A stretch of 50,823 bases of DNA from a virus (lineage: Duplodnaviria; Caudoviricetes), in the IMG/VR virus record IMGVR_UViG_3300010005_000035, positions 1-50,823 of that record; one strand, written 5' to 3'. Shown here piece after piece: positions 32,008 to 43,535 of the stretch; within the stretch, counting starts at the first letter, position 1; every line of letters begins with the position of its first letter. A program made the position numbers and the translations under genes. Below the pieces are notes generated by a model. It was not told the DNA's origin, did no database searches, and saw only the letters and a list, made by a program, of their open reading frames with translations.

Positions 32008-32283
32008 TTGCTGGACACCGTGAAGCCCGTGGCGAAGCGATACGAATACGAGAGGATGACTGGCGAGCAGCTCTCCGCTGCGCTGGCACAGCTCGGCATC
32101 ACCATGCGCGAATTCGCCAAGCTGACCGGGTCAAAGCCTGAGCGCGTCCAGTCTTGGCTCGACGGGACAGATAATATCCCGCAATCGGCGGCGCTGGCGG
32201 CCGTGCTGCTGACCGTGCCTGGCGCGCTCCAACTGGCGCGGACCTATACCGATTCCGTCGCCCGCGACACGCGGTCCGGCTGA
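32008..32283 (+). CDS. Small HTH protein
   Basis: MTGEQLSAALAQLGITMREFAKLTGSKPERVQSWLDGTDNIP. Confidence 0.8.
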   Translation: MLDTVKPVAKRYEYERMTGEQLSAALAQLGITMREFAKLTGSKPERVQSWLDGTDNIPQSAALAAVLLTVPGALQLARTYTDSVARDTRSG

Positions 32284-33236
32284 TGCTGACACTTAAAACC
32301 AAGGCTGATCTGGAAGCGCTTATAGCAGAGGGCGAGCGTGAAAGCCTGACGCTCGAATTTAAGGCCGGAGCCGCACTCGCGAACGAGAAGAAGGGCGAGA
32401 TCGGCAAGGACGTATCCGCGATGGCCAATGCTGCGGGCGGCCAGATCATCTATGGCATCAAGGAGCGCGATCACGTCGCTGCAGAGCTCCAGCCTGTCGA
32501 CGTGAGGCGCTTCAATCACGAGTGGCTGGAGAAGGTCATCCGGAACAACATCTCTCCGGCGGTTGAGGGCGTCACGATCGATATGATCGACGTCGGGCCT
32601 GAGCCATCCGATGTGGCATTCGTTGTGTCTATCCCTCCGGCTACCGTGCTCGCTCCGCATCAGGCCAAGAGTGATCTAAAATACTATAGGCGCCATAATT
32701 TTATGGCCGATCCGATGGCCGACTATGAGATCAGGGAAGCAATGCGCCGCGTGGCCACTCCTCAATTGACCTGCAAATACACAGCATCGAGACCATTGCT
32801 AAATCATTATACCCCTCATGAGATATGCAGCCTCTCTATTGAGCTTTCGAATCGATCGCCTGAGCCTGCACTTTACGTCGCAGTATCTTTCTATCTTGAT
32901 GCCAGGATGAAAGCTGATGGGCTGCCTCGCGGCTTTACCCAAGCAAATGCGGTCGAACACCCCAACGGCCTACCTCTGTGCAGCTATTCTTTCCACATCT
33001 CGGCTCCGCGCGATTTCCCGGTATTTCGCGAGATATCACAGCAGATCGCCGATTTTAGATTTGAGATACCTGCTGACTATAAAGGCGCAAAGATCGCTTT
33101 TGGGCATCGCATCGCCTGTCCCGGATATACGGAGGCGATGCTATTCGACGTCGTCCGAGATCAACGACGCAGCCGTAGCGGCTTTCTCGTAGAGTTTAAC
33201 CAGGATGCTACAGCGCAATGGCGCTTAGCTCACTGA
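32283..33236 (+). CDS. Schlafen/AlbA_2 domain protein with beta-sandwich-like C-terminus
   Basis: ERESLTLEFK, KDVSAMANAAGGQIIYGIKE, PHQ...YYRR; lower-GC 3' half. Confidence 0.85.
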   Translation: MLTLKTKADLEALIAEGERESLTLEFKAGAALANEKKGEIGKDVSAMANAAGGQIIYGIKERDHVAAELQPVDVRRFNHEWLEKVIRNNISPAVEGVTIDMIDVGPEPSDVAFVVSIPPATVLAPHQAKSDLKYYRRHNFMADPMADYEIREAMRRVATPQLTCKYTASRPLLNHYTPHEICSLSIELSNRSPEPALYVAVSFYLDARMKADGLPRGFTQANAVEHPNGLPLCSYSFHISAPRDFPVFREISQQIADFRFEIPADYKGAKIAFGHRIACPGYTEAMLFDVVRDQRRSRSGFLVEFNQDATAQWRLAH

Positions 33237-40913: not shown

Positions 40914-41153
40914 TCAGGACGCCTCAGCGAGCGAAGAATTCGTCGGGCGCGCCGCGATGCTTGCGAGTAGCTCGAGCGTCACGTCGGCGATGCCTCGGTC
41001 AGAAGCCGATGCGACCAGTTTCGCCCAATGTTGCGGCGGAATGCCGTCGCGGCTTTTCCAGGAACTGACCGTCCCAGCGGGAACTCCAAGGGCCTCGGCA
41101 ACCCTCGCGTAGCCGCCAAAGGCAACGATGATGTCGGCAAATGTCTGCATCAT
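40914..41153 (-). CDS. cro: Cro-like repressor
   Basis: IIVAFGGYARVAEALGVPAGTVSSWKSRDGIP; divergent from cI. Confidence 0.88.
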   Translation of the reverse strand: MMQTFADIIVAFGGYARVAEALGVPAGTVSSWKSRDGIPPQHWAKLVASASDRGIADVTLELLASIAARPTNSSLAEAS

Positions 41154-41234
41154 GCATATTTATCTGCGTTACGCAGATTCAATTGTCAAGTCGTGATTCT
41201 CGGATTTGCAGAGCGATGTTCTGCATGATGCAGC
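41144..41234. promoter_or_regulatory. OR operators (three copies, consensus TCTGCRTNRYGCAGA) and pR
   Basis: 41144-41158, perfect dyad ATCTGCGT-T-ACGCAGAT at 41162-41178, 41220-41234; TTGACA on the minus strand at 41184-41189. Confidence 0.85.
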
Positions 41235-41235
41235 T

Positions 41236-41952
41236 ATGGCTAAGCTCGATGCTAACGAACGGCTCCGCATCGCTCGCAAGCGCAGGTTCAAAACCGCGCG
41301 CGAGGCTGCAACCGCACTCGGTGTGCCTTACGGCACCTACACGGGGCACGAATCCGGAACACGTGGCTTTTCGGAAGACGTCGAGCGCTATGCGAAGGCG
41401 TTCCGCGTTCGCGCTGCTTGGCTGGCGTTCGACGAGGGGGCGATGGAGCCCGGAAGAGACGACGCGACTGCAAACCGAGTTTCGGAAGTTGGGCCGCGGA
41501 CAGAGCTTGCCGCCACAGCGCCCCCGGGCGGCAGCCGAGATCTCCCCAACCTCGGTACCGCCGTCGGTGGCGGAAGCGGAGACGGCGATTTCCGGCTCAA
41601 CGGCGAGGTGACCGAAATGGTCGCACGCCCGCCTGCTCTAGTGGGGCGCAAGAAAGCTTTCTGCGTGACTATGCAGAACACAAGCATGCATCCCGTCTAC
41701 AAGGAAGGGCGCCGCGTTTACGTCGATCCGGATGGTCTCCGGCCGGTCAATGGTGACGACGTCCTAATCGAGATGTACCCGGACGAGGACGGCGAGCCTG
41801 GCGCCTCCTATGTCAAGACATTGGTCGCTCGAGGGCCGAAAGAGATCGTCGTCACCCAATACAACCCGCCGCCGGAAAGCCTCCGATTTGACGCCGCTCG
41901 CGTGAAGCAAATGTTGCGAGTGATCCCTTATGACGAGCTGCTTGGAATTTGA
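41236..41952 (+). CDS. cI: CI repressor (HTH plus S24 peptidase)
   Basis: ERLRIARKRR...TYTGHESGTRG; catalytic Ser NTSMHP and Lys YVKTL. Confidence 0.93.
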   Translation: MAKLDANERLRIARKRRFKTAREAATALGVPYGTYTGHESGTRGFSEDVERYAKAFRVRAAWLAFDEGAMEPGRDDATANRVSEVGPRTELAATAPPGGSRDLPNLGTAVGGGSGDGDFRLNGEVTEMVARPPALVGRKKAFCVTMQNTSMHPVYKEGRRVYVDPDGLRPVNGDDVLIEMYPDEDGEPGASYVKTLVARGPKEIVVTQYNPPPESLRFDAARVKQMLRVIPYDELLGI

Positions 41953-41960
41953 TCGGCCGC

Positions 41961-42299
41961 TCACCGCGGCACGATCAGCTTCACGGGCGCTACCCACTCG
42001 ACCGCCACTCCTTCCTCGATCGCGCCATCGGCGGAGACTATCGTCCAGCCATCGCCGCCATGCGAACGGTAAATCCGCATCGAGAGATTTCGACCATCTT
42101 CAGTTCTGATCATGCAAAACCTACCAACATGCCGATCATCCGGTTTCGATCGCTCGCTCGCGTTGTAGCACATGGTCCAATTGTCCATGAGCGAACCCTG
42201 CGGATCGGCATGGATGCGCATGCCAGTGGCGGATGCGTCGAGGACATCCAGGCTGACGGTTTCCCCAGGCGCCGGTGAGGATCTCGGTCGCTTTGCCAT
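41961..42299 (-). CDS. Stand-alone degenerate S24/CI C-terminal domain
   Basis: VGRFCMIRTEDGRNLSMRI...WTIVS...VEWVAPVKLIVPR resembles CI C-terminal domains; Met at the expected catalytic Lys position; no HTH. Confidence 0.6.
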   Translation of the reverse strand: MAKRPRSSPAPGETVSLDVLDASATGMRIHADPQGSLMDNWTMCYNASERSKPDDRHVGRFCMIRTEDGRNLSMRIYRSHGGDGWTIVSADGAIEEGVAVEWVAPVKLIVPR

Positions 42300-42541
42300 C
42301 AGCTCACCTTCGGGATTGGAACGAGGCTGATGTTCTTGCCTAAGCCCCCACGCTCATAGCAGAGCGTGCAGCGAAGGCGGTTATGCAGACCAAATAGGCT
42401 GCAGGTGCCCTGACCGATGATATCCACTATTTCGGCAGCGCGTAGGCGCTTGGTCCTCCCGCAGTCGTCGCAGCTGATGTCAATTGCACGATACTGCGCA
42501 AGTTCGGGCCCTCTGATGCCCTCGGTGAATGCCAAGCTCAT
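42299..42541 (-). CDS. Zn-ribbon small protein
   Basis: CDDC...RLRCTLC; TGATG coupling to the next gene. Confidence 0.75.
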   Translation of the reverse strand: MSLAFTEGIRGPELAQYRAIDISCDDCGRTKRLRAAEIVDIIGQGTCSLFGLHNRLRCTLCYERGGLGKNISLVPIPKVS

Positions 42542-42560
42542 GTGACGCTACCCTGAGTTT

Positions 42561-42575
42561 GTTCTTGTTGCGTTC
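42561..42575 (-). promoter_or_regulatory. Alphaproteobacterial LexA (SOS) box
   Basis: GTTC-TTGTTGC-GTTC (GAAC-N7-GAAC on the minus strand), 20 bp upstream of ATG 42541. Confidence 0.8.
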
Positions 42576-42733
42576 CTATCGATTCCAGAGACCGCGGAGA
42601 GAGTCGAGAGGCTTAAGCCCTCTACTGACTCGCCCTGACAGGGGCGCGCGGCTCGGTGAACAATTTTCGCTGTGATATGCAGTACGTTGACGGTCGGAAA
42701 ATCCGTCGGTCATTCCTGAAAAAATAGGAGTGT

Positions 42734-43087
42734 TTGTTGAAAATGGTCTTCACCGTCGCCGTGGCAGTCGCACTTGCTGGCTGCGAAGCGCTAACGGTCC
42801 GGGGCTCTGCCCCAACGGGAGAGTGGACATCTAGAAGAACACTTGATGAGGCGGCGGGGTGCGTAGTTCGAGCGTTCGACTCGGTGAATACGCGGATCAC
42901 TCACGCCATACAAATCAAGGTGCCCGGCAGAGTTTATGAGATCGTGCCTCAGCAGACGCTGACCGTTGGGGCCGAAATTTACTACGCTCGGCTTGAGGCA
43001 GAGAAAGGGAACACCTTCATGCAACTCTTCAGCATCGGCGTGTTCACCCGCGACATGATGCCTGCGCTCGCAAGCTGCGCCAACTAG
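42734..43087 (+). CDS. Lipoprotein in the immunity region
   Basis: Lipobox LAGC after a hydrophobic leader; AGGAG RBS; lower GC. Confidence 0.8.
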   Translation: MLKMVFTVAVAVALAGCEALTVRGSAPTGEWTSRRTLDEAAGCVVRAFDSVNTRITHAIQIKVPGRVYEIVPQQTLTVGAEIYYARLEAEKGNTFMQLFSIGVFTRDMMPALASCAN

Positions 43088-43104
43088 CAAAAGCACGCTA
43101 GAAT

Positions 43105-43468
43105 TATCCTCTGATCAGCCTCCTATCAGACGACTGGTGAGGGGGTTGAGTTGGCATAGGACGAGACACCCCTGCCTGATCTGACGAGCTCGGCAAGGTT
43201 GTCCCGATCCATGAGACCAGACGGCCGGAGCCGGGGCTCTCACTGGCTGCGCTCGAAGCGAGCGGCGCATCTTGATCCGTACTTTCGAGCGCTCTCGTGC
43301 GCCCGCTTCCCGCCCCCGGATCTTTCGGACCAGGCTTGGCCTTGGGAAGCCCCCACGGTAGGCCATCGTCGAACCGCCCCGCCGTGTGTCACCACCGACG
43401 ACGACTCGCGATCGAGCCACCCGACCGGTGACCGACGGTCAATGGGTCGGCCCGACGGCCTCCCGCGG
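43105..43468 (-). ncRNA. Candidate large structured ncRNA
   Basis: Many nested helices with G-U pairs only on the minus strand, GNRA-type loops, no credible ORF. Confidence 0.6.
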
Positions 43469-43472
43469 ACAA

Positions 43473-43535
43473 TATGCGTTACGCAGATTTTTCTGCATTG
43501 TGCAGTTGACATTAATTCTGCGTTGTGCAGATTAT
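43473..43535 (+). promoter_or_regulatory. OL operators (three copies) and pL
   Basis: TATGCGTTACGCAGA 43473-43487, TCTGCATTGTGCAGT 43492-43506, TCTGCGTTGTGCAGA 43517-43531; TTGACA at 43506-43511. Confidence 0.85.

What the first reader, a model, noticed from the sequence alone, without database searches (positions are those of the whole stretch)
43105..43468. ~365-nt highly structured ncRNA candidate transcribed away from pL
Seen on the minus strand: a closing helix 43453-43467 with 43354-43368 (two G-U pairs) encloses three hairpins (CCGACC/GGUCGG, GGCUCG/CGAGUC and a GUGA-tetraloop stem). It is followed by a GCUUCC/GGAAGC domain (43305-43350) with a GAAA-containing loop, a CGCUCG/CGAGCG hairpin, and a long stem 43162-43176 with 43192-43206. 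The G-U pairs would be A-C mismatches on the + strand, which fixes the orientation. A -10-like CATATT (43471-43476) overlaps the first OL operator. Inference: a CI-controlled lysogenic RNA acting in immunity, as an antitoxin, as a scaffold or as a ribozyme.
Basis: partly seen in the sequence, partly recalled or inferred. Interest (0 to 1): 0.78.

Follow-up and report, generated by a model that had tools for sequence, protein, structure and literature searches.

The report
Self-targeting phage RNA, candidate replication origin
This is a conserved, intricately base-paired non-coding RNA motif of about 285 bases, found in well over a hundred phage and phage-satellite sequences; it carries two near-identical short sequences, the first of which likely pairs with the DNA that encodes the second, so the RNA would start DNA replication without a dedicated initiator protein.

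Summary
The conserved part is window 43408 to 43127 (minus strand). Homologues occur in Bosea prophages, Paracoccus phage Shpa and over 100 viral contigs; 92 distinct sequences show strong covariation, including pseudoknots. The 5' domain is a distant form of Rfam RF02932 (Betaproteobacteria-1), and true RF02932 members continue into the same 3' module, so the Rfam model is a 5' fragment. That module holds two repeats (R1, R2) around a hairpin; they vary between elements but match within one. 33 of 39 inner differences are those tolerated if R1 RNA pairs with the complement of R2; 1 is the reverse. No other partner and no reverse transcriptase was found. In capsid-forming satellites the RNA sits where a primase or initiator otherwise sits, and the two were not found together. 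Best reading (0.45, inferred): a ColE1-like RNA that captures its own template strand and primes or opens replication, CI-repressed in this lysogen. Transcription and origin activity are untested.

The parts
43127..43408 (-). Conserved ncRNA core, about 285 nt (long form of the RF02932-related family)
   Evidence: family profile hits the window at 43404-43129, E 1.7e-30, the window being part of the profile
43370..43408 (-). P0 hairpin, 43408-43400 with 43378-43370; its loop carries the 5' pseudoknot strand
   Evidence: read by eye against the Bosea alignment and the RF02932 consensus
43354..43386 (-). Pseudoknot 0, 43386-43382 with 43358-43354
   Evidence: covarying columns mapped near 43381:43356, z 14; register read by eye
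43338..43364 (-). Pseudoknot 1, 43364-43361 with 43341-43338
   Evidence: four covarying pairs, z 9.6-11.7
43305..43350 (-). P2 (43350-43344 with 43311-43305) and P3 (43335-43332 with 43315-43312) enclosing the near-invariant loop 43330-43322
   Evidence: z 7.5-15.5; compensatory changes
43274..43322 (-). Pseudoknot 2, 43322-43318 with 43278-43274
   Evidence: strongest covariation in the family, z 12-26, 99% canonical pairs
43287..43304 (-). P4 hairpin, 43304-43299 with 43292-43287
   Evidence: z 7.7-16
43248..43269 (-).
   Evidence: z 10-22
43218..43236 (-). Repeat R1: segment A (43236-43233), invariant core (43232-43226), segment B (43225-43218), displayed in the loop of P6 (43242-43238 with 43216-43212); predicted guide
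43153..43213 (-). P7 long hairpin, 43206-43192 with 43176-43162 plus base helix; invariant 3' strand 43160-43153
43127..43144 (-). Repeat R2: segment A' (43144-43141), core (43140-43135), segment B' (43134-43127); its template strand is the predicted target. One B position (43224 against 43133) does not fit the family's wobble rule in this copy
43476..43504 (-). Candidate promoter, -35 at 43504-43499 and -10 at 43481-43476, predicted start near 43469; aligns with closer-to-consensus -35 boxes in L038 and L039
   Evidence: read by eye; not found by the consensus scan; inferred
43475..43529 (.). Three operator-like palindromes (43475-85, 43494-504, 43519-29), same motif as three at OR; pL consensus match 43506-43535 on the plus strand
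43409..43468 (-).
43108..43152 (+). Plus-strand hairpin overlapping R2, likely terminator of the lipoprotein gene 42734-43087
   Evidence: inference

Best explanation
The element is a conserved, multiply pseudoknotted RNA motif whose loop repeat R1 likely base-pairs with the DNA template strand of its own downstream repeat R2, and the resulting R-loop would serve as a ColE1-like origin that primes or opens replication without an element-encoded initiator. Shown: the fold by covariation, the two repeats and their one-sided G/A and U/C differences, the gene contexts. Inferred: that the motif is transcribed; that the partner of R1 is DNA and not an antisense RNA; that the 5' pseudoknotted domain holds R1 single-stranded until RNA polymerase has passed R2; that the purine-rich RNA downstream extends the hybrid; that host RNase H, DNA polymerase I and PriA-type loading (recalled from ColE1 biology), or the phage's own primase-helicase, act on it. 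In this prophage the promoter is predicted to be shut by CI and opened on induction together with pL, and the RNA would be an auxiliary origin beside the phage's own initiator and DnaB-like genes.
For: Covariation in 92 distinct sequences, effective number about 59, median identity 0.58. R1 and R2 match within a locus at 6.45 of 7 (B) and 3.35 of 4 (A) against 4.20 and 2.16 for shuffled pairings. Among 87 distinct R1/R2 combinations from 144 loci, 33 of 39 inner differences fit G.T or U.G wobble of R1 against the complement of R2, 1 fits the reverse, 5 fit neither; the last core base is G in R1 and A in R2 in 74 of 87. Later finds follow the same direction by eye: L279, L286, L291, L292. No copy or complement of B is enriched within 3 kb of 63 loci or in 25 records, 501 kb, so the only complement found is R2's own opposite strand. 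Nine RNA-bearing integrase-plus-head-gene satellites show no primase, helicase or initiator family among the ORFs scanned, although a primase-replicase gene is a core part of capsid-forming PICIs (PMC10085698, passages). Among 15 loci picked by terminase alone, 9 looked satellite-like: 5 have a primase or initiator just upstream of terL and no RNA, 3 have the RNA or its repeats there and no such gene, 1 has neither (Fisher p 0.048). In phages the RNA often adjoins replication genes: primase upstream in 6 loci of the first set, primase downstream in 6 and helicase upstream in 5 of the second set, RNase H directly downstream in L238, an O-like initiator directly downstream in L279. The 50 nt after R2 are purine-rich (0.65-0.67 against 0.53) and AT-rich (0.52-0.56 against 0.41) in 129 loci. 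Precedent: an rG stretch of ColE1 RNA pairs with a dC stretch of the template to form the persistent hybrid (PMC4412123, passages).
Against: No expression or replication data. The wobble count is not corrected for shared descent, and some G residues in R1 may be kept for local hairpins, as the short forms suggest. The same asymmetry is expected if an antisense RNA or a cDNA copied from R2 pairs with R1. The three RNA-bearing satellites of the terminase-picked set have IS remnants or host genes upstream and may have lost a replication gene; L286 shows only the repeats and was missed by the profile. Several small satellite ORFs have no family and could be initiators. This phage and L279 encode their own initiator, and the closest relative L018 lacks the RNA. 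In 9 loci of the first set the RNA points into a convergent cI-like gene, far from replication genes. Purine and AT richness also fit a translation leader. This window's own copy has one R1/R2 difference against the rule and a less purine-rich tail. The L290 and L292 cores differ from the usual ones and L284 has a non-wobble difference.
Confidence: 0.45

Rival explanations
1. The same R1-to-template pairing works as a transcription switch: R1 invades the 8-9 bp hybrid when RNA polymerase sits on R2 and either releases the transcript or makes the complex processive, so controlling late or packaging genes downstream.
For: B is 7-8 nt long, like the elongation hybrid (hybrid length recalled). terL follows the RNA on the same strand in 27 plus 8 loci. 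In short forms P7 ends right before the R2 core. In L038, L039 and L041 a ribosome-binding site and a gene follow.
Against: Does not explain why the RNA and a primase or initiator were not found together in satellites. Downstream genes are unrelated between groups, and in 9 loci the next gene is a convergent cI-like gene.
Confidence: 0.2
2. A trans-acting regulatory RNA in which R1 and R2 both pair with one outside RNA (an antisense transcript across R2, a helper-phage or a host RNA), in the manner of P1 C4 or P4 CI immunity RNAs.
For: Rfam types RF02932 as an sRNA. Bipartite repeats either side of a hairpin recall the a1b1/a2b2 sites of C4 (recalled). An antisense RNA over R2 would give the same wobble bias.
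Against: No complement of B inside the RNA, within 3 kb, or in 25 records. No positioned antisense -10 behind R2 in 112 loci. No C4-family match. Host genomes were not searched for targets.
Confidence: 0.15
3. A ribozyme or processing substrate: the pseudoknotted 5' domain cuts or joins the RNA at equivalent points in R1 and R2, releasing or circularising the P7 hairpin, whose 3' side resembles a tRNA acceptor end.
For: Three pseudoknots and many near-invariant junction bases. A cross-over between R1 and R2 would regenerate both junctions (sequence logic).
Against: No internal guide complementary to A or B, so nothing would enforce R1/R2 identity or its one-sided bias. No match to ribozyme families; ARAGORN finds no tRNA or tmRNA in the window.
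Confidence: 0.1
4. A CI-activated lysogenic RNA for superinfection immunity or as antitoxin.
For: It lies in the accessory slot between cI and pL in this phage, four Bosea prophages and other lambdoid loci.
Against: Both candidate promoter boxes lie in operator-like sites. No shared partner protein; the 133-aa gene behind L038 and L039 is absent here and has only 5 relatives. Most homologues lie in replication or packaging contexts.
Confidence: 0.05
5. R1 and R2 are DNA sites for an element-specific protein (late activator, small terminase, initiator) and the RNA fold is a separate feature.
For: Direct repeats upstream of terminase genes are common binding sites (recalled).
Against: A and B are one base further apart in R1 than in R2; differences are one-directional; spacing runs from 49 to 102 bp without helical phase; no gene is shared across contexts.
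Confidence: 0.05

Closest known systems
Betaproteobacteria-1 RNA motif, Rfam RF02932 (typed as sRNA; attributed to Weinberg et al. 2017 from recall, the name is not in the main text of PMC5737381 and its supplement could not be read)
   Same: Same 5' hairpin with conserved loop, same following motifs and P2/P3/pseudoknot-2 layout; the model hits the 5' end of 6 of 25 relatives at E up to 3e-4; 6 loci above the gathering score all carry R1, a hairpin and R2 downstream.
   Different: The window scores no RF02932 hit and the relatives stay under 49.4 bits. The long form adds P4, P5 and P6 and a longer P7. The 120-nt model stops before R1, so the repeat module is not part of the described family.
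ColE1 primer RNA II origin
   Same: Predicted logic: an upstream RNA segment pairs with the template strand further downstream to start a persistent hybrid (PMC4412123, passages); no initiator protein in cis.
   Different: No sequence likeness was found in the plasmid collection. The guide is a variable bipartite sequence, not a G run; no RNA I-like antisense control was detected; it lies in phages and satellites.
Capsid-forming PICIs
   Same: Integrase, regulator, terL, HNH, capsid, protease, portal and head-tail genes in 10-14 kb elements (PMC10085698, passages).
   Different: The RNA-bearing elements show no primase-replicase among the ORFs scanned; the RNA, often with two small helical genes, takes that slot.
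P1/P7 C4 and P4 CI antisense RNAs (recalled)
   Same: Bipartite direct repeats around a hairpin in a temperate element; tRNA-like 3' end.
   Different: No complementary a'/b' loops inside the RNA; no Rfam C4 match; large pseudoknotted 5' domain.
IS110 bridge RNA and DRT2 or retron ncRNAs (recalled)
   Same: Structured RNA of similar size with variable bipartite loops or repeated ends.
   Different: No reverse transcriptase in 0 of 30 records; no IS110 recombinase seen among neighbours scanned; both loops carry the same sequence.

Membership tests
RF02932 Betaproteobacteria-1 | Score at or above the gathering threshold, 49.4 bits | tested here: not met
   no hit in the window at E up to 5; 0 of 25 long-form relatives above cut-off, best 33.9 bits
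RF02932 Betaproteobacteria-1 | 5' hairpin with conserved loop followed by the pseudoknot-forming motif | tested here: met
   alignments; window copy is divergent and read by eye
RF02932 Betaproteobacteria-1 | Shared downstream module in true members (test of homology beyond the model) | tested here: met
   6 of 6 loci above cut-off among the 20 scanned carry R1 and R2 with 5-8 of 8 B positions identical
ColE1-type RNA-primed origin | Upstream RNA segment able to pair with downstream template strand | tested here: met
   33 of 39 inner differences fit this pairing, 1 the reverse; indirect
ColE1-type RNA-primed origin | No element-encoded initiator needed | tested here: inconclusive
   none found in 9 plus 3 satellites, but small ORFs are unassigned and some elements truncated; present in this phage
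ColE1-type RNA-primed origin | Persistent RNA-DNA hybrid, RNase H processing, Pol I extension, autonomous replication | not testable with these tools
   needs bench work
ColE1-type RNA-primed origin | Sequence homology to RNA II and RNA I | tested here: not met
   no match among 72,556 plasmids; no such Rfam hit
C4 or CI antisense immunity RNA | Loops complementary to flanking bipartite targets | tested here: not met
Retron, DRT or DGR ncRNA | Reverse transcriptase gene in the element | tested here: not met
   PF00078 in 0 of 30 records, 0 of 12 at least 90% complete; controls positive
c-di-GMP-I riboswitch (RF03167) | Gathering score 59 bits and a downstream regulated gene | tested here: not met
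   18.6 bits, E 0.35; the matched loop is part of pseudoknot 2
tmRNA or tRNA | ARAGORN or Rfam call | tested here: not met
Protein-coding gene 43115-43420 | Frame kept in homologues | tested here: not met
   all four Bosea homologues carry a 2-nt insertion near 43247; no PHROG or Pfam hit

The most novel reading that the evidence does not exclude
A widespread class of programmable, self-targeting origin RNAs: a pseudoknotted scaffold presents a variable bipartite guide that recognises its own downstream DNA, starts replication without any initiator protein, and replaces the primase-replicase module in a whole group of capsid-forming satellites. The guide would set origin specificity and could be reprogrammed.
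Probability: 0.35. Interest if true: 0.92.

Novelty: new variant of a known kind. Interest (0 to 1): 0.8.

Why it matters
It extends an orphan Rfam motif from 120 nt to a full 200-300 nt architecture and gives it a testable function. If the origin reading holds, it explains how satellites without primase or initiator replicate, adds a phage counterpart to ColE1 priming with a variable guide, and offers a small protein-free replicon for alphaproteobacteria. Even if it fails, an RNA whose loop co-evolves with the complement of its own 3' end across more than 80 sequence combinations needs a mechanism that I did not find described in the searches run.

Tried and rejected
Direct similarity searches with the window found nothing useful in annotated phages (1 short match) or plasmids. 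Window-specific patterns found nothing or chance hits. Single-protein searches with the lipoprotein and cI found no viral loci; the lipoprotein has no relative but itself within the lengths searched. No sequencing run was listed, which is no evidence on expression. RNase P, tmRNA, cobalamin riboswitch, Y RNA, group I or II intron and tetraloop-receptor resemblances were considered from recall and dropped because the homologues do not keep the pairings. L048 and three 30-nt Bosea matches were not confirmed. 28 of 128 pattern loci were dropped before the alignment for lacking the upstream loop motif or upstream sequence, among them the divergent L046 and L132. A DNA target for A plus B elsewhere in the elements was not found; one of 52 spacing cells gave 8 against 2.7 expected. 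The 133-aa gene behind the Bosea homologues has no family or clear fold neighbour. The satellite gene c5 is all-helical with no clear structural match, best Z 6.0; c1 was not folded. A formal pair count on a hand-drawn structure and a hybrid-energy estimate were not obtained; helix limits rest and on reading. Paper searches: 'Betaproteobacteria-1' gave 3 unrelated papers, 'RF02932' 0, satellite plus RNA primer plus R-loop 0, and nothing on this element (listings only). PMC10690425 lists two candidates under RF02932 in a supplementary table; its alignment archives could not be read, so an extended motif there is not excluded. The scan's own notes held nothing.

Full report
Setting. The window is a virus record classed as a provirus: a lambdoid siphophage with cro (40914-41153), cI (41206-41952), an initiator-like gene and a DnaB-like helicase, and head and tail genes on the minus strand. 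cI relatives lie mostly in Bosea genomes. Three operator-like palindromes flank cro/cI and three lie at 43475-43529 with a pL consensus match. The finding lies between pL and a convergent lipoprotein gene. The closest relative by cI, L018, has about 60 bp in place of window 42611-43477, so the lipoprotein and the RNA are accessory.

Observation. The helices listed exist on the minus strand, and the region folds modestly better than shuffles (z -2.6; plus strand -1.6). Rfam gave only a weak c-di-GMP-I hit, E 0.35, and ARAGORN nothing.

Homologues. BLAST of 111 genomes of the genus of G001 gave 7 with a match, 4 of them long (270-286 nt, 74-87% identity), each just upstream of a pL-like region and opposite to it, with different genes behind. 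A sample of 401 family genomes added two distant copies, one of which found Paracoccus phage Shpa, where the motif follows the primase gene. Of 128 pattern-bearing loci in hand, 100 also had the upstream loop motif, which was not in the pattern; 92 were distinct. A sequence-only model found 3 of 151 alphaproteobacterial-class genomes.

Structure. Mutual information with background correction on the 92 sequences (effective number about 59; no tree correction) recovers nested helices P2-P5 and pseudoknots, the strongest being 43322-43318 with 43278-43274 at z up to 26. RNAalifold on 7 sequences had 24 of 63 pairs with a two-sided change. The conserved unit runs from about 43408 to 43127.

Known family. 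Scanning 20 homologous loci gave two weak RF02932 hits on the 5' domain; a family search found it at the RNA's 5' end in 6 of 25 records at E up to 3e-4, none above the gathering score. A pattern for the 5' motifs returned 70 viral loci; of 20 scanned, 6 are true RF02932 members at 84-104 bits. Of 60 distinct loci, 46 have a candidate R1/R2 pair and 41 match at 6 or more of 8 B positions; the best pair was chosen per locus, which inflates this. All six true members carry the module. So RF02932 is the 5' part of a longer RNA with a short form (repeats about 50 nt apart) and a long form (about 88 nt apart). The window holds a long form.

The repeats. R1 and R2 each consist of a variable 3-4 nt segment A, a conserved core and a variable 7-8 nt segment B. 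They covary by identity, not complementarity. No complement of B is enriched nearby or in whole records. The differences are one-sided: at inner positions 33 of 39 are G in R1 with A in R2 or U in R1 with C in R2, 1 is the reverse and 5 are neither (87 combinations from 144 loci; L001 and L119 as duplicates, L158 and L039 for indels were left out). This is what pairing of R1 RNA with the exact complement of R2 would leave. The nominal p of 4e-9 overstates the case because relatives are not independent. The complement could be the template DNA strand, an antisense RNA or a cDNA. No reverse transcriptase was found in 30 records and no positioned antisense -10 in 112 loci, which leaves the template strand as the simplest partner.

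Contexts. Three recur: directly upstream of terL in 10-14 kb integrase-plus-head-gene satellites of two unrelated capsid types; beside primase, helicase, initiator or RNase H genes in phages; and between pL and a convergent cI-like gene in lambdoid phages. Nine RNA-bearing satellites show no primase, helicase or initiator among the ORFs scanned (ORFs were picked by codon bias, and not every small one was scanned), whereas a primase-replicase is core to capsid-forming PICIs (PMC10085698, passages seen). As a control I picked loci by terminase alone (6 of 401 and 6 of 130 genomes; 15 loci). Nine looked satellite-like: 5 with primase or initiator and no RNA, 3 with RNA or its repeats and no such gene, 1 with neither (p 0.048). 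One phage locus, L279, has the RNA directly ahead of an O-like initiator; 5 other loci had no RNA hit. The three RNA-bearing controls may be truncated.

Mechanism. The best fit to both the wobble signature and the satellite pattern is a ColE1-like origin: transcription through R2, capture of the template strand by the R1 loop, extension of the hybrid into the purine-rich tail, then priming or helicase loading. ColE1 offers the precedent of an upstream RNA stretch pairing with downstream template (PMC4412123, passages seen). All steps after the sequence patterns are inferred; I put this at 0.45, and pairing of R1 with the complement of R2, whatever its use, at about 0.7. In this prophage the candidate promoter boxes lie within operator-like sites, predicting silence in the lysogen, as an integrated origin would need. 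The phage has its own initiator, its copy has one off-rule R1/R2 difference, and R2 overlaps a plus-strand terminator-like hairpin, so this copy may be auxiliary or starting to decay. Rivals are a transcription switch, a trans or antisense regulator, a ribozyme, a lysogenic immunity RNA and DNA-binding sites.

Novelty. The 5' 120 nt are in Rfam as an sRNA of unknown role. I found no text on the 3' module or on a function in the searches run (listings and abstract starts only). The supplement of PMC5737381 and the alignment archives of PMC10690425 could not be read and may describe more. Verdict: a real conserved RNA motif, a new long variant that completes a known orphan family, with an unusual self-targeting signature and a directly testable origin hypothesis.

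Noticed in passing
window 41961-42576: Two minus-strand genes (80-aa Cys-rich and 112-aa) behind cI, preceded by a direct repeat that looks like an alphaproteobacterial LexA box (motif recalled); the pair recurs in L013, L014, L018, L019, L020, L026.
   Followed up: partly
window 32008-33236: HTH gene and a Schlafen/AlbA_2-domain gene on the plus strand inside the late-oriented region, lower GC3; possible defence moron.
   Followed up: no
window 42734-43087: Lipoprotein-like gene with no relative found within the lengths searched; other secreted or lipoprotein-like genes fill the same slot in L038, L039, L040.
   Followed up: partly
L039:1040-1441, L038:1730-2275, L041 end: 133-aa arginine-rich gene directly behind the RNA in three Bosea prophages, apparently IS-interrupted in L041, absent from the window; 5 relatives, no family.
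   Followed up: partly
L272, directly after R2: About seven tandem 8-9 bp repeats, iteron-like, begin about 15 nt behind R2.
   Followed up: no
L053, L060, L095, L109 and kin: A group of 10-14 kb capsid-forming satellites with no recognisable replication gene and two small genes (c5, c1) upstream of the RNA; c1 in 24 loci, c5 in 15.
   Followed up: partly
alignment columns at window 43329 and 43161: These two positions change together by identity (U/U or C/C, z 11), suggesting a further tertiary or template contact.
   Followed up: no
L222, L232, L248, L258, L267, L206, L215, L265: Loci with the RF02932-like 5' domain but no recognised R1/R2 module; some continue into other long structures and may be further variants.
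   Followed up: no
L158: Internal duplication of part of R1 and of R2 within one copy.
   Followed up: no
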